DNA from: Candidatus Omnitrophota bacterium
Lineage (GTDB): Bacteria; Omnitrophota; Omnitrophia; Omnitrophales; Aquincolibacteriaceae
Assembly: GCA_043732705.1 (NCBI GenBank)
Contig: JAYTHE010000034.1
Location: forward strand, 1-61,072
Reading direction: 5' to 3'
Length of the DNA: 61,072 nucleotides
Positions within the stretch are counted from its first letter, which is position 1. Each line of letters begins with the position of its first letter. Below, in pieces: positions 15,717-39,800 of the stretch. The notes under the pieces were generated by a model. That model ran no database searches. It saw only the letters and a program-made list of their open reading frames with translations, and was not told where the DNA came from. The position numbers were made by a program, and so were the translations under genes.

Positions 15717-15730
15717 AGGAATCGCTTTTA

Positions 15731-16112: not shown

Positions 16113-16128
16113 ACTGACGACTGAAGAC

Positions 16129-17473: not shown

Positions 17474-17487
17474 AGGTAAATATGAGT

Positions 17488-17589
17488 CCCGTTAGAATCT
17501 TAACCGGCAGTGAATTATGAATTTGCTAATGTTTATGGTGAGGATGTTGATTTTAAACAGCACTATGTATTTTGGGAGATTCTAACGGG
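17488..17589 (+). promoter_or_regulatory. 5' leader hairpin whose 3' arm covers the SD-to-ATG spacer of the glutaredoxin gene. Same motif as at 10378-10477.
   Basis: Perfect 13-bp inverted repeat: cccgttagaatct (17488-17500) and agattctaacggg (17577-17589). ATG at 17590, GGGAG at 17574-17578. Confidence 0.35.
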
Positions 17590-17838: not shown

Positions 17839-17873
17839 CCAATCTCAGTTCCGTAACTCTTGCCTGCCTGGAA

Positions 17874-17906
17874 AAACCTGTCCACTTCCGGGAGGTGGAC
17901 AGGTTT
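17874..17906 (+). terminator. Terminator-like hairpin after grx
   Basis: aaacctgtccac / gtggacaggttt 12-bp stem with a 9-nt loop. Confidence 0.45.
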
Positions 17907-18091
17907 GAGGAAGGGCACTTTCTGCGTTTGTTTAAATTTGTTCATTTTTGATGCTAGCCCATTGCTCCCACCCAAAACATTAATCGCCAATTTATAGCAG
18001 GTTTAATCAGGTGATTTGCAATATAACCATGGGGCGGGCAAGGTTCCTCTAACGACTTTTAGAAACTTCAACCTTTATAAAAGTCGCCACT

Positions 18092-18634
18092 ATGCGCAAA
18101 AAACAAGGTACCTACTCTCGAATTTTGGCGGGAATACTTGCCTTTGTTTTCACTTTAAATTCGATCTTGCCCAATGCTTCGGCGGGGCAAATTCTATTTG
18201 AAGCACGAAAGCAAAGCGAGCTTCCCGATATGGCAAATATCTGGCTTCCTCCGGAGCTGGGACACGTTACTTCTGCCTTCCGCGGCCAATCCGGCCGTAT
18301 GCTGTTTCATCTCGAAGACGCGCACGGCAATTACGAAGCTCAAATCCGCCTCGTCGAACTCATTGATTTTCTTAACAAACATTATGGCGTGAAGCAAGTT
18401 TATCTCGAAGGCGCGACACAGAAAATTAATCCTAACCTCTACCGTTTTTTCGAAGAGAAAAAGCCGGCGTTTCAGGCTGGGCGGAAATTGCTCGAAATGG
18501 GCGAATTAACCGGCGCTGAAATTTTTCTTTTAAAACAGGAATTACTGCAAAATTGCGGACGGCTTTGCGTTCAAGCGGAAGGGATTGAATCCGCGTCGCT
18601 TAGTGTTTTGCCGCAATACCGAGGTGCTTTTTAA
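18092..18634 (+). CDS. Secreted 180-aa protein paralogous to residues ~45-170 of the giant ORF. It may be a stand-alone N-domain or the remnant of a second giant gene.
   Basis: Signal peptide (ILAGILAFVFTLNSILPNASA). HLEDAHGNYEAQIRLVELIDFLNKHYGVKQVYLEGATQKINPNLYRFFEEKK...ELTGAEIFLL aligns with MLIEDAHTSMEAQIRIRDLVGFLNQKEKIKTILFEGAAHPLKPSLYHFYHDPKK...ELTGGELALF in the giant ORF. Confidence 0.6.
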   Translation: MRKKQGTYSRILAGILAFVFTLNSILPNASAGQILFEARKQSELPDMANIWLPPELGHVTSAFRGQSGRMLFHLEDAHGNYEAQIRLVELIDFLNKHYGVKQVYLEGATQKINPNLYRFFEEKKPAFQAGRKLLEMGELTGAEIFLLKQELLQNCGRLCVQAEGIESASLSVLPQYRGAF

Positions 18635-18819
18635 CGCATCTTATTGTCTGGCCTAGCGATGTATTAATTAGCGTTTTTTAATTCTAAAACTATCAATAAC
18701 TAGCAATGGCTATCTTTAATATTTGCTTAAATTATTTTCATCAGTTAACTTCTAGTTGTATGTTTCTCAATATATATAGAGGAGAGCTGTTTGCGGATGG
18801 ATTCTAAGTAAAAAGACTT

Positions 18820-21800: not shown

Positions 21801-24800
21801 GGCAGCCATCATTTTAGGCGGAATTTTAACCACGCATGAAGACACGAAAAAAAATCCTGCTAAAGCTTTGAAGGATTTTTTTGACAGTTTGTATGAGATG
21901 TATGGGGCGCATGAAAATCCGGCGGTGATGGCAAGAGTCGCTGAGAATATCCGGTATGTAATGAATGCGCTCGTTGAAAAGCTCGCGGTGCGTGGTACGG
22001 ATATTGTTTCAGCGGGTTTTTGGAAATATGATCGTGGTGACCGCGTGGCGGGAAGACGGCCCACTTTTTATTATAACGAATCTGATTTTTTACCGCGTGC
22101 GTATGACATGCCCGCGGAGCTGCGTGAAAAACCCGTCGAAGCCATGGAAGCAGCTTTGCTGGCGGCGCGTGAACGCGGGCTTGGTAATGCTCATTTAGCT
22201 TTTGCTTATGAAAATATTGTGCATGGTGAGTTTGATGAAGCAGCACGCACGCTTCCTGAACACCGCCTTTTATGGCAAATGTTGTGGACTCCTCAAATTT
22301 ATGCATCGGAGCTCATGGAAACCGGCCACAAATCAGTTTTGCAGGTGGCTCAAGACCGTTTGATTAATGATTTGCGCGGCGGCGCGCGCTGGCTGACGCG
22401 CGTTTTTCGCGAGCGCTATAACCCCAGCGTTAATCTGATGGCTGCCCGCGCCCGGTTGGCGTCTTTACCGCTGCATTTACAGTATTTAGATTCCATGCTC
22501 TATGTTTTTTCAAATGAACTTCCTGCGGATTCCAAGCAGTCCGCTGATCCACGGCTTACTAATTCTGATGTGATTGCGGCGCTAAAAGCCACGCATGGTG
22601 ATTATGCTAAAAATCCAGGCTGGCTGCGCGCGATGATCGGCTGGAGACCTGAAGACGCGAATACACCCGCGAAATCGCAAGCCATGCTGGCTGAAGTTGC
22701 GGAATCGATTTGGCCGGTTTACAAAAAACTTTATGACAAAGCGGTCGAACAAATGCGTAAAGAAATTTTAGAACGTGCGGCGAACCGCGAATTGGAAGAT
22801 CAAGAAGTTCTGCAAATGTTAGGGGATATGACTCCGGCTGAACAGCAATTGCTAGAACAAATCCTGCAGCAAATGATGCAACAGTCCGAGCAGCAATTTG
22901 CTTCGGGCAATCAATCTCAAAACCAATCATCCATGCAGTCACCGCAGCAGCAATCCGGTCAACAAAGTGGCAGTCAACAACCCGGAGGACAACAGAGTGG
23001 TGAATCGCAAGCAGGTGGACAGCCTAGTTCAGGACAAGCGGGCGGCGGCGCGCAAAAGAGTAGTCAAGGAAATCCTGGGAGTGGTGGGCAGTCCGCAGGT
23101 GCGAGTCAGGGTAAGCAAGGTGCTTCTCAACCGGGCAGTGGATCGCAAACGGGCGGACAGCCGAGCAATCAAGGTAGTCCAAGCGGTGCGAAAGCGAGCG
23201 GCGGAAATCCAGGGGCTATGCAATCAGGCAATACGCCGGGATCAAACGCCGTTTCCAAGTTACAGGCAGCATTGCAAAATTTACAAAACTTAATGGGGAC
23301 TTTAGGCAGCCAAGTTCAAAATCTTGCTGCTCAGGCCGCACAAGTGAAACAGCAATTACCGCAAGTTGCGGGCGCGGCTGGGCAAGTCGGCGATGCTTCT
23401 CAGCAAGCAAAGAAAGCCGGAGCAGAGACAGCACAAAGCGGACAAAAAACTGAGCCGGGTTCGCAGGCTTCAGATTCCGGTACGCCGAACGCACAATCGG
23501 CAGCTGAAGCGGCCGCCGAAAAATTAAATCAAATGGCTCAAAGCATTCAGAACGAAGCCGCGAGCGCACTGAATCAAGCGAAGGATTTGGAAAATCAATC
23601 GTCTGCGGCACAAAATGCCGGCAATCAAATTCACAATCAAATGCCATGGAAAAATCCCCAGGTTGAGGCCGGGCAAATTGCCGCTCAAGCGCAGGCAATG
23701 AAAAAGAGCGCTGAGCAGCTGATGAAGCTCGCGAACCAAATGGCTGAAAAGGCAGCGCAAATATCAAACGAGGCCGGAGCGCAAAATCCGGAAGCAGCAA
23801 AATTAAAAACGGACGCGGAAACTATGACGCAAATGGCGCAGCAAATGAAGGCGAATGCCGACGATATCGTTCATGGTACGCGTCAAACCGAAGAAAGCAT
23901 TGCAGAGGCTGAGAAATCTGTAGCAGATGCGGCAAACGCGATTCAAAAAGCGCAAGCGTTGATCGAGAAAATGGATGCTGCCAAACAACAAGCCAAAACG
24001 GATTCCGGGAACGAAGTCAAACAGCCCAAGGGCAGTTCTCAAAAGACAAGTGAAAGCCAGGGAGGAAAAGGTACAGGGAAAAGCGAGGCCGGCGGCAGCA
24101 GTAGTGCGGGCCGCGGCATTGAGGCCTCCGGACAGCTTTCTGATTTACCGAAGCCGCCGACTTCTTTTGGTATGCGGGAAATGATGAAACTGGGTGATAA
24201 CACAAACGGGAACGCCAATACCGGCAAGCCTATAGCAGGTATTGATTTTCAGCCGGATGATTATGCGGGGCTGGCAGCGGCACTTAAAAAAGTAAAAAAA
24301 CTCAATGCGGCAGAAAAAAAAGAATATGACAGTTGGTTTTCCGACAAGGTGCATGACCCGGACGGTGAGAAAGTTACGGTGCGTGACATTATCGATGAAA
24401 TTGTATTTTTTCTGAACAGTACGCTTAAAGAATCGCGCGGAATTGATAAGGTGGACGCGCCGCACGGAGCTGTGCTCGCGAATGTGGTTAAAGCGGTTAA
24501 CGGTGCCGCGGGCGGCTGGGCCAATGTGGACTTCACTAAAATCCCCGAACTTTATTTAGCTTTGCTTGTTGATGCTAGCGGTTCGATGGGAACCGAATTT
24601 TATGGAAAAACAAAAACCCAAATCGCGCAAATGGTGGCGTTTATTCTGATGGAAGCGATTTATGAACACAATCTTGAACGCCGCAAGCTTGCATTGCCCG
24701 TAATTAAAATGGAGATTGGGATTTTTCAAAGCGCGGTTGATTTATTGGTGAGTCATGAACAGTTTGAAAATATGGATGACCGGGAAAAAGAATATTTTAT

Positions 24801-27800
24801 TTATCATTCCATCAAGAAGTTTGAAGAAGGCGGCAGTACGGAATACTCGTACGCGGTTAAACGTTATTTTGAACATGTCGCCAGCCTTGGCTTTGAAAGG
24901 AAAGTTCAAAACGATGTTTTTGTGGTCACCGATGAAGCTGTTGGAGAAACTCAAAAAAAGGAAGTTCAAGGTGCGGTTACTTTCGCAAAAGATGAAAATG
25001 TCGGCTTCCATATTGTTCCACTCGGTGATGACGATGAAATCGAAGCATCCAAGCAACTTCATGGTTCCGAACTTGTAATTGATCCGCGCACGCTTGAGAA
25101 ACGTGTTGAATTGCTGCCTTATGTCATGATCGCGCGCATGATGGGCCGGCTTGCCAAAGAGTATCGCATTGCATTGCCGCCGCGCTTTGCGCGTTATGTG
25201 GCGGAGACTGACGCCGCCACTCGCTCTGAAGCGCGTGTATCTGTGGATCTCAAAAAATTGCGCGATATTCCGGGATATCAATTTTTCAAAGACTACACAG
25301 ACGCCGATGGACGTGAGTTTTTAGTTTGGCTGCGCGCGGGTGAAACTATGGCTTGGCAAAAAGGCGTGGGCGGCAGCGAAGTGCCGCGTAACCGGCCCGC
25401 GATGACTCCCGAAAACGAAATTATTCTGTACGGTTTATTAAGCAAACTCTACACGCCAGATGTGATTTATACGTCGATTAACGCTGACCGGCGTTATTTT
25501 ATCCGTGAAGCGCAGAACGGAAAAACCGAACTTTTTTTCCGTGAGAAAGAAGAGGACGGGTGGAAAAGTGCTGCGAAATGGGGGATCCAAAATCGTCCGG
25601 TTGTGGATGGAGAACGGTTTCGCGGCGCGAACGGTGTGACCTGGAAAGCGGCGAATTCGGGGAAGGTCGAAGTCAGTTTGGAAAACGGCACATCTTTTAA
25701 AGTTGATTTGCCCGAAGGGGTCGCGGTGGACAAAGTTTATTTTGAACAAGCTGGCGACGAGGATACGGTTTATTTATTTCAATCCGGGCGCGCGGCGCGA
25801 GTCCAAGTTTTTAAAAAAACGGGGACAGTCTGGAAGCAAGCGGCAGACATGCAGATGGAGACTTGGACAAAGGCCGATGAACCCTTAAAAAAAGTTTTGA
25901 ATGCGACGGGTCTTCCCGGACTTGGCAAAGGCGTGCTTTTGCGTGAAATGGCGCGCATGATGAATTTGGAATATTACAAACTTGCCGCGGACGAAAAAGT
26001 GCATCCGGAGGAATTGGCGGCAAATCGCGCTCTTCGCGATGGTGTCTCCGCTGACGATCCTTCCTCATGGACGCAAGCCCGTCACCTGGGAGCTTTATTT
26101 GTCGTGGATGAAGCGCATAAACTTTCCAAAGAAACCATGAATTCAATGAAATCGCCGATTGCCTCAGGTTTGCATGAATGGGTTTACATTACTCAGGATG
26201 GGCAGTATAAAAAAATGACCGTACCCAACAGCGCGATGGCGCGCATTGTTTTCACTTCTAATACATTAGTTCAGGGAATTACCGGCTCCGCCCTGACGGA
26301 TTTGGATCCCGCCATGCGTAGCCGCATTATCCTGCAGCAATTTAATTGGCAAAGTCCGGGCGCTGAAAAGAGGCGTCTCATGTTGCATGCTGAAAAATTT
26401 GTGCGGGATAATCCCGGCCTCCAGCTGCCGTCAGACTTGAATGAAACGGTCAACCGGTTAATGAAAGCTGCCGCGGGTTTGCGTATTGCTTATTTGGGGG
26501 GAGATAAAGATGACATTGATGCCGCCATGCAAACGAGCGATGGAATTAATTATCCGTATTGGGAAAGAAAAATTGAGGAATTATCCCGCAAATTTAAAAC
26601 GCCGGGTATTTTACGCGCGCCTTCCGCCCGTGTTTTGCAAATGATGATGGAACATTTTATCCGCTTTCCGCTGGATGCAAAATATAGAAAATGGTCGGTG
26701 GTCCACCGTATTTTTAATTTTCGCGCCGAAGACGATCGTAAGAAAAGCTATGAAACCGTGGAAGCCGCTTTCCAGAAATTTTTTGAAAATGATCCCGCTG
26801 CCGGTGCGCGCAAACCGCATTTTGATCTTAAACATTCTTTTCAGGTTGTGCGCCGCGGCCAAGACGCCGAAAGCCTTCCTCTTTACAGTTTGCAGGTCAC
26901 GGCTACGGGCCCTGACGGCAAGCCCGATCCGTTTTTTGATACGTTTGAAGTTCCAATTCACCGCGATAGCGAGATGGTTCAGCAATTTGAGCAGGGCGAA
27001 ACACCCGAATTGCCCGCCGCATTTCAATTCCTTTTACGTTATCCGCAAAATCACGAATTGCTTTATCAAATGCTGCAGGCTTATGCCAAAGACCGTGATG
27101 TTATTTTGGTGGGGCCCGCTTCCACGGGTAAAACGGTGATCGGTACCACGGTCCAGGAATTGGTGGGCGGCCGTGGAGTGACTGTTGAAGCAATGTATGA
27201 AGGCGTAACGCCGGAAACATTATTTTATTCGCCCGGAATCGGACTTGACGGAAGAAGATGGGAAAGCGGATTTTCTGCCGGCTCAGTGATCAAAGCCATG
27301 CTGGAAGGTAAGCCGATTGGCTTTGATGAAACAACGCAGGCGGAAGCGCATGTCATCGGCAAATTGAATGAAGTTACCGAGCAGCGCGAATATGAGCACC
27401 CCGGCACGCATGAAAAAATTCATGCGACTCGCGGTTTTTGGTCATTGCATTACATCAATCCTCCTGATGGCTATGACACCGGCACAGCGTCAGCGGAATG
27501 GTATGAACGGCATGACATTTTATGGGTGGATGCTTTACCTATTCAGGAATCCATGGAACTTTCGGCTTCTGCGGGAGATCTTGGCGATAAACAAATCAAT
27601 CCCAAATTAATTGGCTTGGCTGCTTTGCAACGCGGAGAATCCAAGGGATTGGTAGCGCTTATGGAATGGTCGCGTCAAGCGGCGCGGGGAACAGCGACAG
27701 GCAAAGCCAAAGACTTTACCAAGAAAATCAAAAACGAAATTGAAATTCGGCGCATGATTGAAGCGATAAAAGCCATTGCGCAGAGATTCGAAACAGAATT

Positions 27801-30800
27801 TGCCCTGCAAAATCGCAATTGGGTTTTGGAAGCCGTTAAGTGGGGGATTTTCGGGAAAAATCGTGACCCCGAAACCGTAACGGCCACCGAAATTCGGCTG
27901 GTGATGAATGCCTGGATGCGCGATGAACACGCCGATTGGAAAAATCAGAAAATAGGCATGGGAGATAAAACGCGGCATGATTTTACGATCGAAGTGCTGC
28001 GTAAACCGCAGGAAGTTTTGCTGGATTTAATTAATCAGAATTATCAATTTCAATTTCCCGAGTGGCATGAAGTATTAGTCGACGGTCTCAAGCAGGCAGG
28101 CCTTTGGAAAGACGAATGGAATCAAGACGGTATTACGGAGCTCTTGAATGGCGAAGATATTGTGCTCGAGCTTCTTCCGCTTTTACCAAACGGCAAGCCT
28201 AAATTAGACGGCACGGAATTCAATGAACCTGTGTTGCAGGACGTGCTCGAATATATTGAACGTAACGTTGATGGCGCGGCACTGCAGGAAAAAATAAAGT
28301 GGCTTCAGACAAAAATATCAGAACTTTACGCGACTCATAAAGACCCGGCTAAAGCGGTTAATATCTGGAACAAACTCGATTTTGAGACTCGGCTTAAGCG
28401 GCTTGCGGTTCTTTCCGAAATTTACCGCATTTTGAATTTAACAGTGACATTGCGTGGGTATGGAGTAAAAGGGCGCACCCACAATGAAGCCAATACCAAA
28501 GTGCTGCGTTCCTATCTCGATAATATTGAACGTGCTATCGAAGCCCGCGATTGGCCGGTGGCGGCGCTGAAGGACGCAGAAAATCCTGAGTTTGATGCGG
28601 TCAAAAAACTCGAGGGCTGGCTCGCGGAATATAAATTCAGGAAGTATACAATTCTTCCGACTGGTAAGAGTGCGATTGACGGTTTTGGAAGCGAAGAAGC
28701 GCAGGATTTGGGCGCGCGGGCTTTTGTTTTGGGGAGTCAGTATCCCGATTATACAAAGATCATCGTTCCGAAATTGCAACTTGCAAGGCAACAAAAACCA
28801 CCGCAAGCAAAACGTTCCGAAGTCCGTAGGGGTCTGTCCCAAGCAGTGCGCGGGACTGATCCCAATGCTCCCGTTACAGCAGTCTTTGGTCTTTCTAGAA
28901 ACCATAAGGGTCAGTCCCCATTCGAGGACAGACCCTCCCGACGTTCCGAAGCGCGATTCGATGATGCGATCCTTGAGCTCGCTACCGCCCAACAGGGGTT
29001 GAGCTCAGCACGAGCGCTTCAAGATTCGATTGGCGGAAGTGAAAGTATCGTTGCCGCCGCGCAAAGACAAGTTGAAGCTTTAGAAGTTGAAGTAGAGAGA
29101 CTCAAACCAAATGGCTTTGATGTGGCCGCCGCGCTTGTAGTTGCGAACCAAGCTGCATCTGCGACTCAACAAGTTGCGACGCCTGCTCCCGCACCTGTTG
29201 CGGCTCCAAAAACTGTGGTGAGTAATGCAATTCTAAAACATTCAAATATTATCGATTATGCGTCGTCATTGGGTTTGGGAAAAGGCACGGAAAAGTATTG
29301 GGATCAGTTAAAGTACCCGGGATTTTTTCAAAAAAAATGGATAAGTTTCGGCTATTTGCTTCTCTGCAACCTTTATATTTATCTGGATTATGTTTTATTG
29401 TTTTGGAATACATTTACCGGTCTTCTCGAACGCGGACTCTTGAAGGATGAGCAACCGCCCGCTCTTTACATGGCGGAACGTCATATGAGAAGTCTCGTAT
29501 TGGATGTCCAAATTGCGACAAAAGATGTGGATGCGCCTGAGAGTAGAGAGGCTGTGCGTGTTGAACTTGCTTTAGAACAAAAGATAAAAGCATTTCGCGA
29601 TAAGTGGAAATTTAAAAATAAATTTCTTAATTATTTTACCACGGGCATTTTGGAGCTCTACCTTCCGATTTGGAGAAATGCCACCGCTGTTGCGTGTCTT
29701 AGCGAAGTGAAAGAATGGCTTAAATACCCGCAGCGAAAAGCTAATCAAATGTCGCGCGATGCTTTTAATAAATTCATGGCGGCTGAAATAGGCAAAGAGT
29801 CAGTGCAAGGGTTATTCGGCAGATTGGTTGAGCTCACCCCAGATTATTATGACACTCAGACTAGCTCGGGATGGTTGGCGGTTCTGTTATGGCACAGAGC
29901 TTACGCGTCTAAAAGAGATGATCCTAACACTCAAACGACACCGTATATTCCCAAGCCTGAAATAACACTTATTGATTTAATGCGTGAAAACCGGCGTGAC
30001 ACGCAAAAAGCACTGTCCGATGAAGAACGAAGAACGCTGAGTGTAACGGCAGGAATTTTATCGCAAAGATTTTGGCTGGAAATGGCTTATGAATTCCGTG
30101 AAGTCTCGCGAAATGGATTTTACTTCGCGGAACACATGCTCGATGCCGGATCCGTCACTGCGCAAACAATAAAAAAATCACAACAGGATTTAGCGCTGAT
30201 GAAACAGGGGCTGGACGCGGATGTCGTCACTGACGAAGAGCTCGCAGAGATTTCAAATAAAACGCGAGCTATTTTATTTGATGACTTCGGGCAATATCCA
30301 AACTTTCAGTACTCCCATTTAATTTGGAATATGATCGAGCCGCTTCTGCAAAAAGAGGTTGATGCGGATGAGCGGCGATGGGGCTATGCTGATTTTGTGA
30401 GTGTTATTCAGCAAGCGCTGGGCCACCAACTTCAATCCCGCTGGGTCGCGCAGCCTGATGATGCCGCGTTTTTGGCGGTGATATCAAATCGGTACAGACA
30501 TTTTTTTAATATCAGAATGTCGCTATCTAAAAACCAAGCGCATTTCGATGACGAAGCACGAAAACGACTAAAAGAACCTGAGCCGATTATTTTAAGAAAC
30601 AGGCTTGCGACCATGAATCGATGGTTTGTGGAGGAAGAACCAGACAACGAGGAAGTTGAAGCGAACTCTAATGACGAATTAGCCGACATCGTCGCACGCT
30701 CTGAAGTTCGTGGAAACCACCCGCACCCCAGGGGTGCGGCCCGGGTCAGCACCCCTGGGTTGTGGGTGGGGCAAGACGCGGCACTATCTTCACGTTCCGA

Positions 30801-33800
30801 AATGCGCGAACAAACAACGGTAGAAGAGGCGCTTCAAAAGACGCGTGAAGAGCATTCAAAACTAGTCCAGCAACATTCCAGCATGGAAGCCTTGGCTGAA
30901 TCGCTCGGAGACGCAATTGACCTGACTATGACTGCGGGTCCCGTTGCTGTCGCGGCTGAGGTCATTCAATTGCTTGAAAAGGAATTACGGGAAATCATCG
31001 CCGCGGAAGAAGCCAGAAAAGCCGCTCTCGCCGCGCAAGGCGGGAAACTTGATCTCGCTAAGTTGCTCGCAGATACAGAAGCGGAACTTGCTGATCTCAA
31101 GGGGACTGGCGCCGGTGTGCCTGTCCCCGATGCGGATTCGGAAACTATCCCCAGCGTAAAGCCCACACAACAAAAATATAAATTTGTTCGAAGAGAGAAA
31201 AAAAACATTCGGGCAGGGATAGCAAATAAAAACTTTGCTGGAATAACAGTCTCCGCTAGCAAAGACCGGCTTTATGTTGGCCACAAAAATCTGCCAGATT
31301 ATTTAGTGGAGTTTATAGCTCGCCCTGACAAGGCAGGTTTGCCCAATACAGTAATATTTATTAACGGCGGTGCGCACAGGTCTGACAATCATATTCTGGA
31401 TTTTGCAATCACAGGTTTTCAGAAAAAAGATAAAAAATATATTTACGAAATAACACTTATTGCAGAAAATAAAAATTACACGCCCGAGAAGCCGCAAATA
31501 ATTCGTAAGGGCAATGCTCTATTTGTAGTCAAAACCTTCTCTCAATCCGAAGCTGAAGATCGCGGCGACGAGCTTCAAAAGTATTTCAAATTTGAGAAGG
31601 TTGGCGATGAATCAGTAGTTTCAACGATTCCAAAATGGAATACGAATCAAGATTTGATGATCGCTTCCCCAAATGGAAAAGGTGTGATCCGATTTGAATT
31701 TCAGACCGAGGGGCGGTTAGGAAAACATGCCTTGGGGGTTAAAGGAAAAATATTTTCTGATGAAAAAAGTAAAAAAGAGGAACATTGGAACGCTGAAAAT
31801 GTGGGTGTAACCATCGCTGGCTTTGTGACAGCGATTTTTGATCCGGCGGATAAGACGCTTTGGATCGTTAGTGATGAATGGAATGATGGGAGCATCAAGG
31901 CTGTTCCGGCTAAAGCAAAATCCGAGCAAGTCACTCATTTAGAGCTGCATCCCAAGACCGGAAACCCGATTATTATTCCTATCCGCCGTATCGGAACCAA
32001 AGAAGTTCTTGCCAATTGGGATAAATTTAAAAATCTCTTACCGCAAGACGCAGAGGCGAATTCAAAATCGATCGTGACGGCGTGGGTAAGTGAGCTTATA
32101 GATTCATTGCCAAAAGGTAAGACCGTTTCAATGAGGCCTAACGTCGTATCTGGATTTGCCAGTGATGAACAGCTTACAAGACTTAAACAAGCTTTAGGCC
32201 TTCAAACCGCCCCGCACAAAGATGCTGTTTTTGGATATGGCGAAGAAATGCGTAGTGACTATCTGATTTTTAACGTTACCGTAGGTTCAGGGGGTAGCGC
32301 GAAGGAAGAATTGGTTTTATGGTATCAAAAAGACGGTAAAGAGTATTGGCTTTGGCTGAAAGGAATTAGTAAAACAAAACTCATTACCAATCTGGGCGTT
32401 TTTGCATTAACAGGGCAGTTCCATCCCTCCATTTTGAAGCAGTGGCTGGAAAAAAGAAATTCAAAATCGCTTGCAATGGATATTTTGAAAAACCTTCCAG
32501 GCAACTGGACAGATAGCACTTGGGAGGGGGCGCCTTCTACAAAACACAAAACCATGTGGTTTGGCAAAGAAGCAAAATCAACGGATGTTAGCTTTATGGC
32601 CAAGGAAGAGAATGATCAGGATAATGGTGATTGGGAATTAACTGTTAATGCAGGCGAGCTTAGAATCTATTGGCATCAGGATCGGAATATTTTGGAAATA
32701 GGCGGCGAAGACGTATCTCTTCCAAATAATCCGCTTGTGGATGTGACGTATGACAAAGACCAAAAAACGGCAACATTGGTTTTAGATGAAGATGCCAAAG
32801 TTGCAATTGCAACGACATTGGACGTAAAAGATTCCGTCAGAAAAACACGTGTCATGGCCTCACGTGGAAAATTGGGTTTTAAACTTGCATTTGCCGATTC
32901 CGCAACTTACCAATCTCCGAATCAATCACAGAAACGTTCTGAGCTTCGAAGTCGTCAGTCCTCAGTATTCAGTTTTCAGGCGGCGTTGAATTTTTATCCG
33001 GCTTTGGTTTCGAGTCTGCTCAGTCGTGAGTTAATGGGGGGAAGCGCAACGCGAACCACGTCTTTAAGAGATTCAACACTGGTTTCAACGCGTGACAAGC
33101 GATCTTTGACATCGCGCATATCTTCGCGAAGCGGAACAACGACTTCGGTTAGTAATTGGATCTTGGTTTCAATGTTCTCAAGCATGGCGCCGACTTCGGT
33201 CGTTGTGAATGTATTCTTCATGATTGCTTATCCAACTTTTGTTTCGAGCTTTGTCAGCCGCAAGTTGATAGCGGGAATGGCAGAGTTAATGGAGGGAATG
33301 CCAACGCGCACAACATCTTCAAACGAGCCGACACGTGTTTCAAGCCGTTCAAGCCGATTTTCAACAGCGGAAAGCCGCTCTGGAAGTGGGGCAACAACTT
33401 CTATAACGACACGAAAATCCGCGCGCAAACTTTCAATGAGCGTTGCTACTTCACCGGACGTAAATTTATCTTCGGACATTCTTTTTTCCTCCAAATGGAA
33501 GGTCAATATGCCGCAAAATAGCGGTCTTGTAAATATATATTTATCATATAATATTATTGTGTTATTTGCATATTTAGCTTTTGCAAGTCTTCAGCGCTTA
33601 GCGTCCAGCGTTAAGCATTCTTCGGGCCTTCGGTCTCGCCTGCTTGCCGATCAGGCAGGGGGCTTGGGCCTATTTCAGCGCTCGGAAGTGCGTACGGCTG
33701 CTGAAATTGAGACGCGCATCGCCGAGCTCGAAGAGCGCAAGGCTTGGATTTTGGAAGCAATGGCACTTGAAAATACCGAGTACCAAGTACCGAGTACCGC

Positions 33801-36800
33801 GGCAACGGGGACTGGCGCCGGTGTGCCTGCCCCCAATCGTTTCAGCGAATTGGATGAATTTCATTTGCCCCAGCTAACCAAGATGGAATCGGCTAGCTCT
33901 ATTTTGGAATATGGCAAACTTCCTGAAAAAATGAATGGGGGCGATGGAGGAGTGCAGGTGTTGGTTAATTTAGGTAATGGCCTCGCTCTGGCAGGAACAT
34001 CTGAAGGCAGTGTTGCTTTAATTAGGGCCAAGTTGAAAGGGGTGAATGAGAATGAGCCGATCGTAGTAATTGAAGAATTGAATTTAGATACGAATGATAG
34101 GGTGAGTTCTCTGACTTACTTGGGTGATGGCCTAGTCTTGGCAGGAACGAATGAAGTAAAAATTTATTTAGTAAAAATTGATCCTCAAGCAAAAAAGAGA
34201 CAGCGGCTTAAAAAGATTGGAGATTTGTCCCTGTCATCCGGAATCGTACAATCTTTAATTTATTTAGGCAATGGCTTTGCGTTGGCAGGCACAGGGAGTA
34301 AAGAGCTTTTCTTAATCAAAGTTCATTCGAGCGCCGAGAAGAAGCACCAGCTTGAAGTGATCGAAACACTCAGTGAAGTAGCGAATGGCTGGATAAATGC
34401 TCTAACTTATTTGGGAGATGGTTTTGTCTTAGGGGGCAGCAGAAAACCTGACGGCCAAGTCTTTTTAGTTAAAATCAATCCTGAGGCTGAAGCAGGTAAA
34501 CGTTTTCAAAAGATCGCAACATTGGGCAGAAGTTCGGATGAGAGTGTGACGGCTTTGACGGACTTGCGTAATGGCTTTGCCTTGATGGGATTAGGGAAAA
34601 AAATTTCTTTAATTAAGGTTAGTCCTAGTGCGGGTGAGAAACAGCGGCTTCAAGTGATTGAGAGTTTGCCCAAAAATTTTTACGGATCGGTGAGAACGTT
34701 GACGCATCTAGGCAATGGCTTTGTTTTGGCGGGGATGGATGATGGGAAAATTTGCTTGATTGGGGCCAATCCTAAAGCAAGAAAGGGGCAACGGCTTAAA
34801 GTGATTGAAAGTTTGTCCGGGGATATAGAAAGCGATGTGCGGGCTTCAGCTTATTTGGGGGATGGCTTTGCGTTGATGGGGACGGGGAGGGGGCGGCGAG
34901 GGGAGAACCAAATTTTTGTAATTAAGATTCAGGGAAAAGTCGAAGCTTCGAAAGTTGCTGGGACCCATTCGGCAAGCTCAGGGCAGACTGGCGCCGGTGT
35001 GCCTGTCCCCAGTGAGTCGACATACAAAATTATAAAGCCGCGCGGGGCAAAATCAATTGCTATGGAAAACGGCACCCTTGTTTTTCGTCCAGATATGAGA
35101 CCTGTACACATTCAGTATTATTATACTTTTCAGGGAGACCCATCGAGGCAGGATACGAATTTCCCAGGCATTGAAGATTTTATCAATGCATTTAAGGTGG
35201 GAAAGAAAGTTTATGCAATCGTGAAAAATGGTTCCCAAACGAAAGATGAAAAAAAATATCCAAAAAAAGCCGGGAGCGCCAGAAAAGGGAAAGACCAAAT
35301 TTCTCTTGTTTACTGGACCGAATCTGAAGCGCTAATACCCGAAAATGTGGCGAAAGTCAAAGCCGCCGTTAGCCCCGAAGTTTTCAATGAAATTTATAAA
35401 CCGGTGGAGACCCATTCGGCAGGCTCAGGGCAGGCTGGCGCCGGTGTGCCTGTCCCCGTTGTTGTCTCCGATCAGAAAGCATTGAAACCCATCATCGAAG
35501 AAAAGACCGCCAAACTTAACGCGCAAGTTGATATTCATGCCGAGTACAGCGTGGTCCTAGGCGATGGCAGAATTAAGATCTGGACACAGCCGCGTAAGTC
35601 TTTTGTGCTTAACAACAAATTTAAAAATGTTTTGGGCATGGAATGGATTCCAACCGGAAAAAAAGATAAGCCATGGATGTTGGTTGTCATTGGAAGAGAT
35701 GATAATTGGACGATCCTAGTGGATCAAAGAGGACAGCCGCAATCAACCGAACGCCCTTTATTTCAAAATCCAGCAAAGAACGTTAAAAATTACAAAATTT
35801 ATAAACATGCCACGAACAAGAATCACTACGGACTGGCTTTAATACAGGCAGACGGCAAGGTCAAGATTTGGAATTTGGTGCGAGGCGATGTGACCAGTAA
35901 TGAACTTATAACGACGGATTTAAAAGACGTTCCGGAATATAAAAATGGATTAGTTTCACAAATGAAAGTTAAAAAAGCCCTCGCGCCTTCGGCCTCCGGC
36001 CGCGGGGCTACTCCTGCACCCATCGTCGAGCCTAAAGAAGTTAAGCTTCTTCAGGGCCTTTTAAATGCGCGCGCGGAATACGATCCGGCTACAGGAGATG
36101 TCAATCTTGCCATAGTAGACATGACTGCGGTTCCTGCCAGAGTTGTCGGAGAGGGCCGAGTTACCCGATTAGAATCATTGTTAGGTTTGGAATGGGCTCC
36201 ATTTCAAGTAACCGAACCGGTGGGGAAGGAAATATTGCTCATGATTGCGGAAGGTAATGTCGCAACGGTCATGGTGAACCCCGACGGCAATTTAGGAGGG
36301 TTGCAAACCGTGCCCTTTTTGGCTGACAAACCTATTCAAAATTATAAGCTTTATGCATACAGCGATACTGAAGTCGCAGTGCAAATTAATTTTGAAGATG
36401 GTTCAAATCATATTTTAATCATGAAAAACAATGGTTTCTTATATGAACCTAAAACCGCAATCAATTTGACCGGTAAAAAGCCGATTTCACACCCCATGAA
36501 AGTTGCGCCTCCTCCGTTGCCGGTATCTGCGCCAAAAGCAATTTCCAAAACAACAACTTTTGCAGGGAAACGCTTTACGGCTTCGGTTGATCAAAACAAT
36601 GCTGATACGGTTCATATTCAAGTTGGTGCGAGAGAGCATTTTTTTGGGGCTGGAAATGTTCAGGCCTTTGAGTGGATTGTTTCAAAGATTGATAAAACAC
36701 CGCCGGTCGAACAAATAGGATTGCTCATTGTTGGTAAAAAGGAATTTGATTTTATATTTTTTAATACTCAAACCTCCTTACCATTTTCCCCTCATCATCA

Positions 36801-39800
36801 TGAGTTTGACCAAGCAATTACAGGATATGAAATATTAAAAATATCGGCGGAAACGCATGCGGTTATTTTGAAATTTCAAGATGGATCACGAAGCGCGTGG
36901 AAAATAACGACTGATGCAATTGTTTTTGAGCAAGAAGTGACGGCGATGGATCTCGCTCAAGTGCCGAAAGGTAAACCGATTTATCAAGGTAATTTTCAAC
37001 CAGCCACTTCAACCGCCGCGGTTGCATCCACACCGGGGACAGACCCCGTTCCCAAACCTGCTCTCGGGTCTCCGGTCTCGGGTCTCCGGTCTAACATTAG
37101 TGATTGGCAAAAAGAAATTTACGAAACCCTGATCGATCTGATTCAGACAGACATTGCGTTGGACGAAAGACAACAGCCGGACGGCACAAAAGCGCATTTG
37201 CCTGAATCTGGGTTAATTTCAAAAAGCGGGGCAGTGCCAAAATACCATGTAAAAGAATGGAATGGCGAGAGCGTTTATATTGATAGACCTGCGCCGAGGT
37301 ATAGCCACAACAGTCAATATGGGCTTAAGCAGTCGGACTCCGGTCATATTTATATTCACCCCACTTGGGATATGAGCGACACGTATGATTTTAGAAAAAA
37401 AATTCATCGCTCTGATATTTTACAGGTAATTAATCGTGAAGAGAAAGGAGACGAAGGTAAGCACGAATTGTATGTTGTTATCAAGGACAACGTTTTAATA
37501 GATGGTTGGCCAAGAAAATTTGGATGGTTACATACTGAATGGAAAGTCCATTATGTAACCGAAGCTGAAGCGGTCAAGGATTATGAAAAATATAAAAAGC
37601 TGGGCATTAGGTTTAAGGAAATCCCGGCACAGCAGACCAACGACTACCGACTACCGACTACCGACACATCGACGGCGGGCCCGCCGGCACAAAAGTCTTT
37701 AGTCGTTAGTCCTCAGTCTGTAGTCTTAGCGAAGCGCAAAGCGCTTTTGCTTGAAAAACTCGCGATTGAAAAAGAACTTGCTACGCAGGTATCAGACACG
37801 ACGGCGGTGGTGCCTGACACCTATGCGCCTATTGCTTCGACAACGCTTGCGGATCTACAAGCACGTCTTGATGCTGTTAATAAACAAATTCAAAAGAAGC
37901 ACCAATTTATTGAGAAAACAGGCTCAACAGGCAGAAGAGATGAAGCTCTTGTAATTTTGCATGAGTTAGAAGCCGAGCAAAAAGAGCTTCTTGAGAAAAT
38001 CTCGGCAATGAGTTCTGCAACCCGTCCACCTCCCGGTGGTGGACAGGCTTTTCAATTTCCGCCGGAATTTCGCGTGGAGCCGAAACAGAAATTGGAATTT
38101 GAGATCGAATCCAATTCTAAATCTTGGGTGCTCGTTAAACAGGCTGAATTGGATTTTTTTGGCGACAAAAGTGCGCTTCCAATCTCTAACAACGAGATGG
38201 ATATAGAAATCCCCATGGAATTTCGTCTCAAGTTTATTCACATTGCTTTTGACGGGAAAAATACGGTTTATGTGGTTGTTCCGGATGGTTCGAATTTAAA
38301 GGGTGTCGGGCAATATTACAAAACCGAAATTGAATTTAAAAAGCCTCAAAAAAATTTACATCTTGAATACATGACGGAGTCCCAAGCCATTGCTAATAAA
38401 TCCAAGCTTGAAAAATGGATCGAGTTTAAAGAAGCCTCCGCTGCTTTGGGGCGACCTTGGAAGCAGTTGCAATTACAGGGGCTGACGCCGATTGTTTTCA
38501 TGGAAGGAAAAGACGGAGATCAAATGGCTGTTTCAGTGCACTTTTCCAATAATCTCTATTTGCATTTGATGAAAGATGGTAGAACGCATAGCCTGCGTGA
38601 CACCCAGATTCTCGCAAAAGATGTCGCGCAGATTTTCTATGATGTTAAAAATAATAAAACCTGCGTTATCGTGAAAGATGGTGTTTTAAAACCTGCTTCC
38701 ACAAACGCAATTACTTTTTTAACTGAAGATGAAGCCGTTCAAATGCTTGCTGCCACGGCAGGGGACAGAGCCCTGGTCGCTGGCTCTGTCCCCCATGGTT
38801 CCAAGGAAACATCCGAGTCTCCGGTCTCCAGTCTCATTCAGCGCCGCGAAGAAATTATCGCTGCACTTGCGAGGTTAGATTCTTCCGGGGTCAGAGCTCT
38901 GGTTGGCAGCTCTGTCCCCAATGCTTCACTCGGTACTAAACAACATGCGCTGAATGTTTTAAATAGTTTGTCGGAAGCAATTTGGGAGAAGACTGATATA
39001 GAGGGTGCGGCTGCCTATGGCGCACAAATGAGGGAAGAGGTCAAAAGAGGCCTGCTTGGTTTTGTGGCTGAAAAAGAAAGTGAGTCGAATTTTGGAAAGT
39101 GGGCGCTCCAAACTGCAGGCGGCGGCCCCAAAATTAGCGAGATGTTGAATTACTACTATGTTTGGCACCCGACATCATCCGAGTTTCATATTTTAGAAAC
39201 GGAAATCAAGCTTTCTCAAGACCCGCTTGTGGATGTGGTTTATGACGAAAACACTAAAACCGCAAAACTCATTTTAGATCAGTCGGCCGAAGCTCAAATT
39301 CGAAAAGCCATGACCGGCAAGGAAGGCCTGACTCTTTCACCGACAGATAAAAATTTTGGCATTGAACTTGTTTTTGTTAGCCCCGCCACTTACGTTTCGC
39401 CGAATAATGCTAAGCCTTCGCCGATTGTTGTACCTTTCACATTCGGAGCCAAAGAGCATGCGATGAATGTATTTAAATCTCTCCCCCAAGTTTGGGAAAA
39501 ATCAAAAGATACGGAAGGTTATGACCAGGCGCGTGAAGTAGAGAAGGGTCCTTGGATTACGAAGATGTTTGTTATGGATTCAAAGCAGGGGGCATTGGGG
39601 AACTGGAGATTAAAAAAAGGACATGTGAATAGGGGATATAGCGTTTTTAAATGGGATGAAGCTTTGAGCGAGTTAGACCTGAGTTTTGATGGCAGTGAGA
39701 AAGTGAAACTCAGCCAAAATCCTTTGATTGATGTTGTCACTCAAGATGGCACCGTGAAGCTGGTTTTGGACATAGCAAGTAAATTGCCAATTGATAAGCT

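What the first reader, a model, noticed from the sequence alone, without database searches (positions are those of the whole stretch)
32981..33678. Two paralogous minus-strand small genes sit antisense inside the giant ORF, within an RSExR-bracketed spacer, without closing the giant frame
Between RSELR (32935) and RSEVR (33679), the + translation degenerates into S/T/R-rich filler (..SRELMGGSATRTTSLRDSTLVSTRDKRSLTSRISSRSGTTTSV..) unlike anything else in the protein.

The minus strand of the same stretch carries two tandem ORFs. The first is 33479..33228, 83 aa from MSEDKF, with GGAGG 8 nt upstream of its ATG. The second is 33221..32994, 75 aa, starting 6 nt after the first one's stop. They are clear paralogs: EVVAPLPERLSAVENRLERLETRVGSFEDVVRVGIPSINS versus EVVVPLREDMRDVKDRLSRVETSVESLKDVVRVALPPINS, ending LETKVG and LETKAG. 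Both have coiled-coil-like composition. Upstream of them (33507-33600) is a strongly AT-rich, promoter-like spacer that is atypical for this ORF.

The frame geometry is (33221-18820) mod 3 = 1, so the third codon positions of the two strands coincide. This is the arrangement most tolerant of antisense dual coding. In this geometry, + strand stops can arise only from minus-strand Tyr codons preceded by NNY, or from His/Gln codons preceded by NNT. The two small proteins contain no Tyr, no His and a single Gln (ATC|CAA, which is harmless). The AT-rich spacer is also stop-free in the + frame, which is unlikely by chance.

Possible interpretations:
1. A two-gene cassette inserted into a disposable linker, then purged of + frame stops.
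2. Genuine nested antisense genes, for example regulators of, or partners to, the giant gene.
3. The giant ORF is really two genes (18820 to about 32980 and about 33680 to 52491) with accidental read-through. However, I find no convincing RBS and start after 33679.
4. An assembly chimera.
Basis: partly seen in the sequence, partly recalled or inferred. Interest (0 to 1): 0.85.

Follow-up and report, generated by a model that had tools for sequence, protein, structure and literature searches.

The report
Small gene pair nested antisense in giant gene
Two real, promoter-driven small genes for coiled-coil proteins lie backwards inside an 11,223-codon bacterial (Omnitrophota-type) gene, in a junk-like spacer whose reading frame stays open, and the same arrangement recurs in at least five other genomes, so it is neither chance nor an assembly error.

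Summary
The giant ORF 18820..52491 stays open through 32981-33678. The minus strand carries a sigma-70-type promoter (33533..33505), a GGAGG ribosome-binding site and two tandem paralogous genes: 33479..33228 (83 aa) and 33221..32994 (75 aa).

The small genes are real. A profile search found 132 homologs of about 75-85 aa; every source name that gives an organism is Omnitrophica. A TTGACA-17-TAnnnT promoter recurs in 13 of 14 lead copies. The two window genes represent two old subtypes.

Of 16 loci examined, 13 lie inside or next to giant ORFs punctuated by R-[S/A]-E-x-R. Six are nested antisense in the same relative frame and one is nested apart from a single stop codon. All seven have no host-frame stops across promoter and gene, whereas all nine free-standing copies have 1-4 stops in the promoter region.

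Best reading: an independent small operon, functionally tied to the giant gene, sits in a translated but disposable inter-module spacer. The flanking RSExR motifs are probably processing sites, which is inferred and untested.

Assembly chimera, spurious ORFs and accidental read-through are rejected. The "purged of stops" idea holds only in part, because the family is intrinsically poor in Tyr, His and Gln.

Novelty: new variant of a known kind. Interest: about 0.72.

The parts
18820..52491 (+). Host giant ORF (11223 aa). It has a signal-peptide-like N-terminus and AAA_5 domains, and is punctuated by 11 RSExR motifs.
   Evidence: Its N-terminal module is homologous to giant ORFs in L002, L004 and L016.
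32935..32949 (+). RSELR motif, the left boundary of the spacer.
   Evidence: It is part of a 50-nt repeat (32935-32984) that is 86% identical to 39916-39965.
32950..32984 (+). Array of TCAGTNN-like 7-nt units, read by eye; translated as SRQSSVFSFQA.
   Evidence: families D18, D20. The same element lies in the cassette-free spacer at 39916-39967.
32994..33221 (-). Small gene B (75 aa), type-2 family member with the 'PLREDMxxVKxRL' signature. It is probably translationally coupled to gene A.
   Evidence: Type-2 relatives occur in L007, L011, L013, L014 and L015.
33228..33479 (-). Small gene A (83 aa), type-1 family member with the 'APLPERLSAVE' signature.
   Evidence: The AlphaFold2 model has pLDDT 91.5 and two helices.
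33487..33491 (-). GGAGG ribosome-binding site, 8 nt upstream of the ATG at 33479.
   Evidence: Similar Shine-Dalgarno-like sequences occur in L001, L002, L004, L007 and L016.
33505..33533 (-). Sigma-70-type promoter TTTACA-17-CATATT, with an AT-rich UP-like stretch upstream (33534-33580).
   Evidence: The equivalent TTGACA-17-TAnnnT is found in 13 of 14 lead copies of the family.
33600..33678 (+). GC-rich remainder of the spacer (SSVKHSSGLRSRLLADQAGGLGLFQ). It is absent from the L001 copy and resembles the short GGGCCTTCGG-type repeats elsewhere in the ORF.
   Evidence: (family D4). The fold is not significant (z = -1.2).
33679..33693 (+). RSEVR motif, the right boundary of the spacer. A coiled-coil module follows.
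   Evidence: QRSEVR follows the cassette in L001 as well.
39916..39981 (+). Paralogous 'empty' spacer, RSELR-SRQSLVVSLQSA-RSEMR, after a paralogous domain.
   Evidence: families D9, D13, D18.
28813..28956 (+). Another RSExR...RSExR spacer, filled by one long hairpin repeat in frame and flanked by an identical 11-nt ACGTTCCGAAG.
   Evidence: -46.7 kcal/mol, z = -4.15.
30697..30807 (+). Another RSExR...RSExR spacer, filled by one long hairpin repeat in frame.
   Evidence: -47.8 kcal/mol, z = -3.46.

Best explanation
The 32981-33678 stretch is a working two-gene operon on the minus strand. It has a strong sigma-70-type promoter, a ribosome-binding site, and a type-1 and a type-2 member of a roughly 80-aa two-helix coiled-coil protein family whose organism-named members are all Omnitrophica.

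The operon sits inside a translated but functionally empty inter-module spacer of a giant, polyprotein-like gene. The modules of that gene are separated by the peptide motif R-[S/A]-E-x-R.

**How it works (proposed).**
- Ribosomes translating the giant mRNA must read through the spacer to reach the downstream 7,500 codons.
- So the only constraint on the + frame there is 'no stop codon'. The S/T/R-rich filler is simply the antisense of E/V/L/R-rich coiled-coil codons.
- The relative frame with coinciding third positions is the one frame this Tyr/His/Gln-poor family leaves open.
- The spacer peptide is most likely discarded by cleavage at the two flanking RSExR sites.
- The small proteins are made independently from their own promoter. 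They are functional partners (assembly factor, regulator or subunit) of the giant gene's products.
- The nested position is one of several ways these genomes keep the small genes next to the giant gene. It probably arose when a giant ORF extended across a former intergenic region.

**Shown:** the anatomy, the homology, the conserved promoter, the recurrent nesting in one frame, the contrast in stop codons between nested and free copies, the enrichment and spacing of the motif, and the association with giant genes.

**Inferred:** translation through the spacer, cleavage at RSExR, the partner function and the engulfment origin.
For: **The small genes are real.**
- The two are paralogs, E = 8e-21.
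- A profile of 7 members finds 132 proteins of 47-112 aa, most 72-98 aa, with E down to 1e-32. All source names that give an organism are Omnitrophica.
- Differences by small-gene codon position run pos2 < pos1 < pos3: 18/27/45, 8/19/44 and 13/21/39. Mean BLOSUM is higher in the small-gene frame than in the giant frame: 2.4-3.4 against 1.6-2.7.
- The AlphaFold2 model has pLDDT 91.5.

**They have their own expression signals.** TTGACA-17-TAnnnT with an AT-rich upstream stretch occurs in 13 of 14 lead copies, mostly followed by a Shine-Dalgarno-like sequence.

**Nesting recurs.** The window, L001, L002, L004/L006, L007 and L016 all carry the gene antisense within open frames of 168 to 3505 codons, always in the same relative frame. 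L011 is the same except for one stop codon.

**Control.** In the 120 nt upstream of the small gene, the host frame has 0 stops in all 7 nested or quasi-nested loci. It has 1-4 stops in all 9 free-standing loci. Shuffle P values are 0.027 and 0.007.

**The spacer is disposable.**
- The paralogous boundary at 39916/39967 has the same 50-nt element and no cassette.
- Two other double-RSExR spacers are pure hairpin repeats.
- The filler has no Pfam hit and no homolog at E <= 0.001 in the word-indexed protein search; an exhaustive search matched only one other nested-cassette filler.

**The motif acts as a peptide.**
- There are 111 R[SATDNG]E.R sites in 11 giant ORFs against about 4.5 expected.
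- Ser is encoded by both TCN and AGY, and there is no flanking consensus.
- Gaps between sites appear bimodal: about 22 of 14-60 aa, the rest mostly 110 aa or more.
- The shared N-terminal module is followed at about the same point by RSESR in the window, RDEVR in L002 and RAEVR in L004.

**Functional tie.** 13 of 16 loci are in or next to such giant ORFs, in every orientation: nested, convergent, co-directional and divergent. One 6248-aa ORF has a nested copy and also two copies at its 3' end.

**No internal restart.** There is no in-frame start with a Shine-Dalgarno sequence after 33679 until 33958. No + strand promoter is predicted in the region.
Against: - There are no expression data of any kind. 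Translation through the spacer and cleavage at RSExR are untested.
- No protease could be tied to the motif. The Tiki/ChaN-like hint for the N-terminal module is a single sub-threshold hit (E = 0.025) that was not reproduced.
- L016 is nested without any RxExR motif, and L007 has the motif on one side only. The motif is therefore not obligatory for nesting.
- L011 shows that the giant ORF can end before the cassette, so downstream modules can apparently be expressed separately.
- Three loci (L009, L015, L018) are not near a giant gene.
- Openness over the coding part is largely intrinsic to the family.
- No intrinsic terminator was found for the window's small operon, so its transcript may run antisense into the giant gene. 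Regulation by antisense transcription cannot be excluded.
Confidence: 0.6

Rival explanations
1. Regulatory antisense unit. The main role of the cassette is its strong promoter firing head-on into the giant gene. Transcriptional interference or antisense RNA would throttle or split expression of the 33.7-kb gene, and the small proteins would be secondary.
For: - The -35/-10 elements are near-consensus in almost all copies.
- In 11 of the 13 giant-associated loci the small gene is nested antisense to, or convergent with, the giant gene.
- In L013 the two stop codons are 3 nt apart (10228 and 10232), so the transcripts must overlap.
- No terminator is predicted after gene B in the window.
Against: - L017 and L019 are co-directional with the giant gene and L020 is divergent from it.
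- The protein sequence is under clear purifying selection and folds confidently.
- Free-standing copies in L009 and L014 have hairpin terminators.
Confidence: 0.15
2. Mobile, frame-transparent cassette. A selfish or recombination-shuffled element inserts into RSExR-coding linkers and survives because it never closes the host frame.
For: - The cassette lies at non-homologous positions in related giant ORFs: about aa 700 in L004, aa 4706 in the window and aa 3116 of 3494 in L007. Its flanks are not homologous between the window and L002.
- Nesting is always in the one frame that stays open.
- A 6-nt TTTCAG occurs at both junctions.
- Another spacer is flanked by an identical 11-nt ACGTTCCGAAG, which resembles a target duplication.
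Against: - There is no transposase, integrase, terminal inverted repeat or convincing target duplication for the cassette.
- There are no hits in the phage or defence libraries.
- The gene is single-copy or few-copy per locus and is widespread as an ordinary free-standing gene.
- No nucleotide-level similarity links the loci.
Confidence: 0.12
3. Two or more separate giant genes with an ordinary antisense gene between them. The missing stop codon would be a neutral or recent accident, and the downstream part would be initiated independently.
For: - L011/L012 has exactly this layout: a stop codon 16 codons before the cassette, then RAEVR, then further ORFs.
- Small genes commonly sit just past giant-gene stop codons in L013, L014, L017 and L019.
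Against: - The open frame recurs in six further loci and is absent in all nine free-standing controls.
- There is no in-frame start with a Shine-Dalgarno sequence after 33679, and no + strand promoter.
- Without a stop codon, ribosomes necessarily read through.
Confidence: 0.1
4. Artefact: an assembly chimera, or spurious antisense ORFs produced by the composition of the + strand.
For: The S/T/R-rich + frame is low in complexity. Long antisense ORFs do occur elsewhere in the giant gene, up to 194 aa.
Against: - There are 132 homologs, including free-standing called genes with promoters and terminators.
- The same nested architecture appears in independent assemblies from NCBI, JGI and ENA.
Confidence: 0.01

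Closest known systems
Antisense overlapping (embedded) protein-coding genes reported in bacteria, for example the E. coli O157:H7 cases nog1/citC, laoB and pop, and cosA in Pseudomonas (from my own knowledge, not checked here)
   Same: A protein-coding ORF lies wholly inside another gene on the opposite strand, and both frames are open.
   Different: - Those cases are mostly single-lineage, young ORFs overprinted on a functional protein sequence.
- Here the embedded genes belong to an old, widespread family with its own conserved promoter.
- The host frame over them is filler under a 'no stop' constraint only.
- The arrangement recurs across genomes.
Eukaryotic nested genes inside introns, often antisense (own knowledge)
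   Same: A complete, independently transcribed gene sits in a part of the host gene that does not contribute to the host's mature product.
   Different: The host segment here is not spliced from the RNA. It must be translated and, if removed at all, is removed at the protein level.
Inteins carrying homing endonuclease genes (own knowledge)
   Same: An in-frame insertion in a coding sequence that is translated and then removed from the mature protein.
   Different: - Pfam finds no intein domain in the filler, the flanking giant-protein segments or the small proteins; splicing motifs were not examined directly.
- The embedded genes are on the opposite strand with their own promoter.
- Removal, if it occurs, would be by cleavage at RSExR, not by splicing.
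Rickettsia palindromic elements and similar in-frame repeat insertions (own knowledge)
   Same: Non-coding-type DNA is tolerated in frame within ORFs. The window's other RSExR spacers (28828-28941, 30712-30792) are exactly such hairpin elements.
   Different: The 32981-33678 cassette is not palindromic. It carries a promoter and two conserved genes.
Polyproteins with cleavage-site-flanked spacer peptides, such as retroviral Gag SP1/SP2 and the yeast alpha-factor precursor (own knowledge)
   Same: A short peptide motif recurs at module boundaries. Pairs of sites bracket short segments that look dispensable.
   Different: Cleavage is not demonstrated and no protease has been identified. The host is a cellular bacterium and the spacers hold intergenic-type DNA elements.
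Omnitrophota giant genes (West-Roberts et al. 2023, bioRxiv 10.1101/2023.11.21.568195; 2026 preprint 10.64898/2026.06.07.730766)
   Same: A very long ORF in the same phylum (the window's own organism was not identified directly), with AAA_5 listed among the domains. The authors speculate about post-translational cleavage.
   Different: Term searches of those papers found no occurrence of 'antisense', 'nested', 'linker', 'palindrom' or 'polyprotein', and nothing on an RSExR-type motif or in-frame hairpin spacers.

Membership tests
Nested antisense protein-coding gene pair | The embedded ORF lies wholly within the host ORF on the opposite strand, and both are open. | tested here: met
Nested antisense protein-coding gene pair | The embedded ORF is under protein-level purifying selection and has homologs. 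| tested here: met
   132 homologs. Codon-position pattern and BLOSUM contrast. AlphaFold2 pLDDT 91.5.
Nested antisense protein-coding gene pair | The embedded gene has its own promoter and ribosome-binding site. | tested here: met
   Consensus-level only: (13 of 14 lead copies).
Nested antisense protein-coding gene pair | The host frame is really translated across the overlap. | tested here: inconclusive
   The open frame is maintained in 7 loci, against stops in all 9 free-standing controls, and there is no internal start. No direct evidence exists, and L011 has a stop codon.
Nested antisense protein-coding gene pair | Both products are detected (RNA or protein). | not testable with these tools
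   No transcriptome or proteome data are available.
Pfam BMFP (PF04380; JGI names one homolog 'BMFP domain-containing protein YqiC') and phasin (a name JGI gives another homolog) | Score above the Pfam gathering threshold for the family model. | tested here: not met
   BMFP scores 13.2 bits against a cut-off of 37.2. No phasin model appears among the hits at E <= 1. The best hit, Baculo_PEP_C, scores 22 against 38. The PDB profile search finds only generic coiled coils.
Intein | Intein/Hint domain and splice-junction residues in the in-frame insert. | tested here: not met
   The filler has no Pfam hit at E <= 1. Its sequence is the antisense of a coiled-coil gene.
MITE / REP / RPE-type in-frame repeat | A palindromic or terminal-inverted-repeat structure, multicopy, with no ORF of its own. 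| tested here: not met
   The cassette has no terminal inverted repeats, and the fold of 33600-33678 is not significant. The feature is met for the neighbouring spacers 28828-28941 and 30712-30792.
Polyprotein with protease-site-delimited modules (host gene) | A short peptide motif recurs at module boundaries far above chance and is conserved as a peptide, not as DNA. | tested here: met
   111 sites against about 4.5 expected. Mixed TCN/AGY Ser codons. Apparently bimodal spacing. The homologous N-terminal module is followed by the motif at about the same point in three genomes.
Polyprotein with protease-site-delimited modules (host gene) | A cognate protease is present. | tested here: inconclusive
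   There is only a sub-threshold Tiki/ChaN hit in L004 (E = 0.025). It was not reproduced.
Polyprotein with protease-site-delimited modules (host gene) | Cleavage at the motif is observed. | not testable with these tools
   This needs proteomics or N-terminal sequencing.
Type I toxin-antitoxin or other antisense-RNA locus | A small hydrophobic toxin, or a known RNA family. | tested here: not met
   The proteins are hydrophilic coiled coils. Rfam finds nothing at E <= 1 and PADLOC finds nothing.

The most novel reading that the evidence does not exclude
These Omnitrophota giant genes are, in effect, stop-less operons. They are chains of unrelated enzyme-like modules fused through translated former intergenic regions.

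- Each junction is marked by R-[S/A]-E-x-R processing sites, so the translated 'intergenic' peptide is cut out.
- Because the spacers are disposable, they keep hosting intergenic-type functions on either strand. These include hairpin repeats, heptamer arrays and even a complete antisense promoter-plus-operon.
- The small coiled-coil family has co-evolved a Tyr/His/Gln-free composition, so that it can be read through in antisense.
Probability: 0.3. Interest if true: 0.9.

Novelty: new variant of a known kind. Interest (0 to 1): 0.72.

Why it matters
**Nested antisense genes.** Fully nested antisense protein-coding genes in bacteria are rare and usually contested. This case has comparative support that does not rest on a single genome. 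That support comprises a 132-member family, a conserved promoter, six further nested or near-nested loci in one frame, and free-standing controls that carry stops.

**How giant genes are built.** The finding also exposes an undescribed organisation of some Omnitrophota giant genes. Their modules are separated by a sharply defined five-residue motif. Double sites bracket spacers that behave like translated intergenic DNA.

**An open question made testable.** The giant-gene literature asks whether these proteins are cleaved into pieces and where (10.1101/2023.11.21.568195). If the motif is a processing site, proteomics can look for termini at RSExR.

**Annotation.** Gene callers suppress ORFs nested in longer ORFs. 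The window's small genes and the nested copies in L002, L004 and L007 were not returned by the protein database searches. Such genes are therefore missed systematically.

Tried and rejected
**Searches that led nowhere, or only part of the way**
- A single-sequence search with protein A found only one homolog. Searches of genome, viral and metagenome contigs with the first three-sequence alignment found nothing. Only after adding a diverged copy (L002, found through the + frame filler) did the family open up.
- A search with the + frame filler as a protein found nothing.
- Pfam, NCBIfam, PHROGs and PADLOC on the small proteins gave only sub-threshold coiled-coil noise.
- Foldseek against the PDB gave nothing.
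- Rfam on 32500-34200 gave nothing.
- L008 was a false positive, an SMC-like coiled coil.
- A first L011/L012 comparison was mis-registered and was not pursued. The gene calls agree.

**Ideas rejected or left open**
- *RSExR as a DNA or RNA motif, or a hairpin.* Rejected because Ser uses both TCN and AGY, and Ala substitutes for it. In L004, however, by inspection of the sequence (not folded), the RAEVR-coding DNA appears to double as the small gene's terminator hairpin.
- *RSExR as a start site.* Rejected because the x codons are mostly not start codons.
- *The N-terminal module as a Tiki/ChaN/TraB-like protease.* This was recalled from memory. There is one weak hit that was not reproduced, so it remains an untested lead.
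- *Terminal repeats or a target-site duplication for the cassette.* Only a 6-nt TTTCAG was found.
- *An orthologous giant gene without the cassette.* No close ortholog of the window's flanks was found. The internal paralogous boundary at 39916 served instead.
Full report
**1. Observation**

The window holds one ORF of 11,223 codons (18820..52491, + strand) that is uninterrupted through 32981-33678.

On the minus strand of that stretch lie two tandem ORFs.
- Gene A runs 33479..33228 (83 aa from ATG; 92 aa from an upstream TTG).
- Gene B runs 33221..32994 (75 aa).
- They are separated by 6 nt.
- GGAGG lies 8 nt before the first ATG.

The two proteins are 43% identical (E = 8e-21). A sigma-70-type site, TTTACA-17-CATATT, lies at 33533..33505 on the minus strand within the AT-rich stretch. 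In the + frame the stretch is bracketed by RSELR (32935) and RSEVR (33679).

**2. Is it more than chance?**

- RSExR occurs 11 times in the giant protein against 0.12 expected. It occurs only twice in the other five frames of the window.
- The + frame is stop-free over the 198-nt non-coding part of the cassette with P = 0.027 (dinucleotide shuffles).
- In 17,452 codons of real genes from this window, the same antisense frame carries 4.2% stops and never stays open for 232 codons.
The absence of Tyr, His and Gln is a property of the whole protein family: Y is 0.3%, H 0.7% and Q 0.8%. With Trp and Cys these are the five most depleted residues. The coding part of an average member stays open in this antisense frame with probability about 0.68.

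**3. The small genes are real genes**

A single-sequence search found one homolog, P0001, on a 505-bp contig. Nested copies cannot be expected in a protein database, because gene callers prefer the long ORF. I therefore searched with the + frame region. That search found a 2,959-aa protein whose only similarity to the query is the filler. On its opposite strand lies a third small-gene homolog (L002).

Adding diverged copies step by step gave further loci. A profile then retrieved 132 proteins of 47-112 aa, most of them 72-98 aa, with E down to 1e-32. Every source name that gives an organism is Omnitrophica.

Evidence that the small-gene frame is the one under protein selection:
- Differences between copies fall in the order pos2 < pos1 < pos3 of the small-gene frame: 18/27/45, 8/19/44 and 13/21/39.
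- Replacements are more conservative in that frame than in the giant frame (mean BLOSUM62 2.4-3.4 against 1.6-2.7).

With a 100-sequence alignment, AlphaFold2 gives a confident model (pLDDT 91.5) of two helices, 8-29 and 32-82. Sequence-profile matches in the PDB are generic, mostly trimeric, coiled coils. Foldseek, Pfam, NCBIfam, PHROGs and PADLOC give nothing above threshold.

The two window genes represent two old subtypes, 'APLPERLSAVE' and 'PLREDMxxVKxRL'. These also occur separately or in tandem elsewhere, so they are not a recent local duplication.

A TTGACA-17-TAnnnT promoter preceded by AT-rich DNA is found before 13 of 14 lead copies. The -35 hexamer is exact in 11 of them.

**4. The nested arrangement recurs**

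In addition to the window, the small gene lies antisense inside a long open frame, always in the same relative frame, in these loci:
- L001: all 505 bp are open and read ...QRSEVR...RSETR.
- L002: flanked by KRAEMR ... LRAEER.
- L004 and L006: flanked by SRAEVR ... ARAEVR.
- L007: a 3,494-aa ORF, with RSEMR on one side only.
- L016: a 1,479-codon open frame with no RxExR motif at all.
- L011/L012: the same layout, except that a stop codon ends the 5,186-aa ORF 16 codons before the cassette. The frame then stays open for 290 codons across the cassette and through RAEVR.

L004 and L014 overlap at 100% identity. One 6,248-aa ORF of 'Omnitrophica bacterium RIFOXYB12_FULL_50_7' therefore has a nested copy after its first module, and also two convergent copies right after its stop codon. 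NCBI, JGI and ENA assemblies agree. This rules out a chimera.

Free-standing copies serve as a control.
- In the 120 nt upstream of the start codon, the relevant antisense frame has 1-4 stops in all nine free loci and none in the seven nested or near-nested loci.
- In the coding parts the free loci have 0, 0, 1, 7, 0, 0, 2, 1 and 6 stops, and the nested loci have none.

**5. Association with giant genes**

Of 16 distinct loci, 13 are inside or next to ORFs rich in the motif.
- Nested or near-nested: the seven above.
- Convergent with the giant gene's 3' end: L013 (3 nt between the two stop codons, 10228 and 10232), L014 (70 nt) and L005 (1.7 kb).
- Co-directional, just after its stop: L017 (58 nt) and L019 (133 nt).
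- Divergent from its 5' end: L020.
- Elsewhere: L009, L015 and L018.

Among the ten loci found through called proteins, a route biased against nesting, seven are giant-associated. Because orientation varies, the protein rather than antisense transcription is the more likely functional link.

**6. The host gene and its spacers**

Across 11 giant ORFs there are 111 R-[S/A/..]-E-x-R sites against about 4.5 expected.
- The consensus is R, S (66%) or A (27%), E, V/A/M/L, R, with no flanking consensus.
- Ser is encoded by both TCN and AGY, so selection acts on the peptide.
- Distances between sites appear bimodal. About 22 are short spacers of 14-60 aa and the rest are mostly modules of 110 aa or more.
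- The N-terminal module shared by the window, L002 and L004 is followed at about the same point by RSESR, RDEVR and RAEVR respectively. Beyond that point the sequences differ.

Modules carry unrelated enzyme-like domains: AAA_5 here, and PALP, Response_reg, HATPase_c, methyltransferase and APH elsewhere.

In the window, two other double-site spacers are each one long hairpin read in frame: -46.7 and -47.8 kcal/mol, z = -4.2 and -3.5. The GGGACAG...CTGTCCC hairpins that end free-standing small genes, apparently as terminators (by eye), also occur many times in frame within the giant ORF.

The boundary at 39916/39967 follows a domain paralogous to the one before 32935. It shares a 50-nt element (86% identity) and has only a 12-residue spacer.

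The spacers thus behave like intergenic DNA that is kept translatable.

**7. Mechanism**

Shown:
- A promoter-driven small operon sits antisense in a spacer between two peptide motifs.
- The host frame is kept open there in seven loci.
- No in-frame start with a Shine-Dalgarno sequence follows until 33958, and no + strand promoter is predicted.

Inferred:
- Ribosomes read through the spacer.
- The filler has no function of its own. It has no Pfam hit, and its only homologs in the two protein searches are the fillers of other nested cassettes.
- The filler is removed by cleavage at the flanking motifs.
- The small proteins work with the giant gene's products.
- Nesting arose when a giant ORF extended over an intergenic region that already held the small gene. 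L011 would be a split or intermediate state.

Not resolved:
- No protease has been identified. A Tiki/ChaN-like hint, recalled from memory, has one weak hit that was not reproduced.
- It is unclear whether the strong head-on promoter also modulates giant-gene expression.
- It is unclear whether the cassette moves on its own. No terminal repeats were found.

**8. Comparison with what is known**

Closest concepts:
- bacterial antisense overlapping genes;
- eukaryotic genes nested in introns;
- inteins that carry homing endonuclease genes;
- in-frame palindromic elements of Rickettsia;
- polyproteins with spacer peptides.

None fits as a family (see the membership table). Term searches of the two Omnitrophota giant-gene papers found no occurrence of 'antisense', 'nested', 'linker', 'palindrom' or 'polyprotein', and nothing on the motif or in-frame hairpin spacers. 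One of them raises cleavage as an open question. A literature search for the motif strings found only unrelated alginate lyases.

**9. Verdict**

- Interpretation 3 is rejected as 'accidental', and interpretation 4 is rejected.
- The finding is a new variant of a known kind: nested antisense genes, here as a recurrent family-level arrangement in translated spacers of giant genes.
- Interest is 0.72. It is limited by the complete lack of expression data and by the unknown function of the small proteins.

Noticed in passing
window 18820-52491; also L002, L004, L005, L007, L011, L013, L014, L017: R-[S/A]-E-x-R punctuates these giant ORFs: 111 sites against about 4.5 expected, with apparently bimodal spacing (14-60 aa spacers against modules of 110 aa or more). 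It looks like a processing or boundary motif. Searches of the library for four motif variants, and term searches of the two Omnitrophota giant-gene papers, found no description of it.
   Followed up: partly
window 28828-28941 and 30712-30792: Two RSExR-bracketed spacers are each a single long hairpin repeat read in frame (-46.7 and -47.8 kcal/mol). The first is flanked by an identical 11-nt ACGTTCCGAAG, which resembles a target-site duplication.
   Followed up: partly
window 20019-20238, 31101-31140, 33807-33846, 34983-35022, 35430-35469, 38761-38944, 41929-41986, 42682-42739, 43119-43162, 49464-49507: There are many in-frame copies of GGGGAC...GTCCCC palindromes, translated as GTDPN, GAGVPVP or GDRALVGSSVPN, in linkers of the giant ORF. 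The same hairpin type appears to act as the terminator of free-standing small genes in L009 and L014.
   Followed up: partly
window 20140-20370 (giant aa about 441-517): Repeat-derived junk (..VIPDSIGDPALDSRLRGNDKKHQIAAPSSMVRDDE..) is inserted in frame inside the conserved N-terminal module, without RSExR flanks. L004 has different heptamer-like junk at the same loop.
   Followed up: no
window 32950-32984, 37694-37718, 39931-39965: Tandem 7-nt units (TCAGTNN / AGTCNTN) are read in frame as S-x-V-x-S-x-Q. L001 has a GTACAGC-type 7-mer array at the equivalent place.
   Followed up: no
window 18820-20730; L004 10228-12294; L016 10450-11448; L020 1-708: A conserved N-terminal module (motifs AH..AE, EGAA, GGFH, ITPRIT) heads these giant ORFs. 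There is one weak match to the Tiki/ChaN superfamily (E = 0.025, L004) and a weak DUF5682 match in the window. This could be the processing protease, but that was not established.
   Followed up: partly
L004 10205-10245: By inspection of the sequence (not folded), the DNA encoding SRAEVR on the giant strand appears to form the stem (CCCGC-N8-GCGGG) of a terminator-like hairpin for the small gene on the other strand. Its T-run is read as KGKK.
   Followed up: no
general (peptide motif): In the frame with coinciding third positions, the antisense of R-S-E-x-R reads R-x-S-[D/E]-R, so the motif is nearly self-complementary at the peptide level. In L007 the giant's RSEMR overlaps the small protein's ...RISER....
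   Followed up: no
window 1-18700 and 52569-60964: All large ORFs are on the + strand (cysK, a BamA-like protein, a SufS-like protein, era, htpX, ispH of the PRK13371 type). The window shows no nucleotide-level similarity to any fetched locus, so its organism is distinct from all of them.
   Followed up: partly
L005 2554-3095; L011 1396-1970: Toxin-antitoxin pairs (RelE/ParE-Phd-like by eye in L005; PemK-like by Pfam in L011) sit beside the small gene near giant-gene 3' ends.
   Followed up: no
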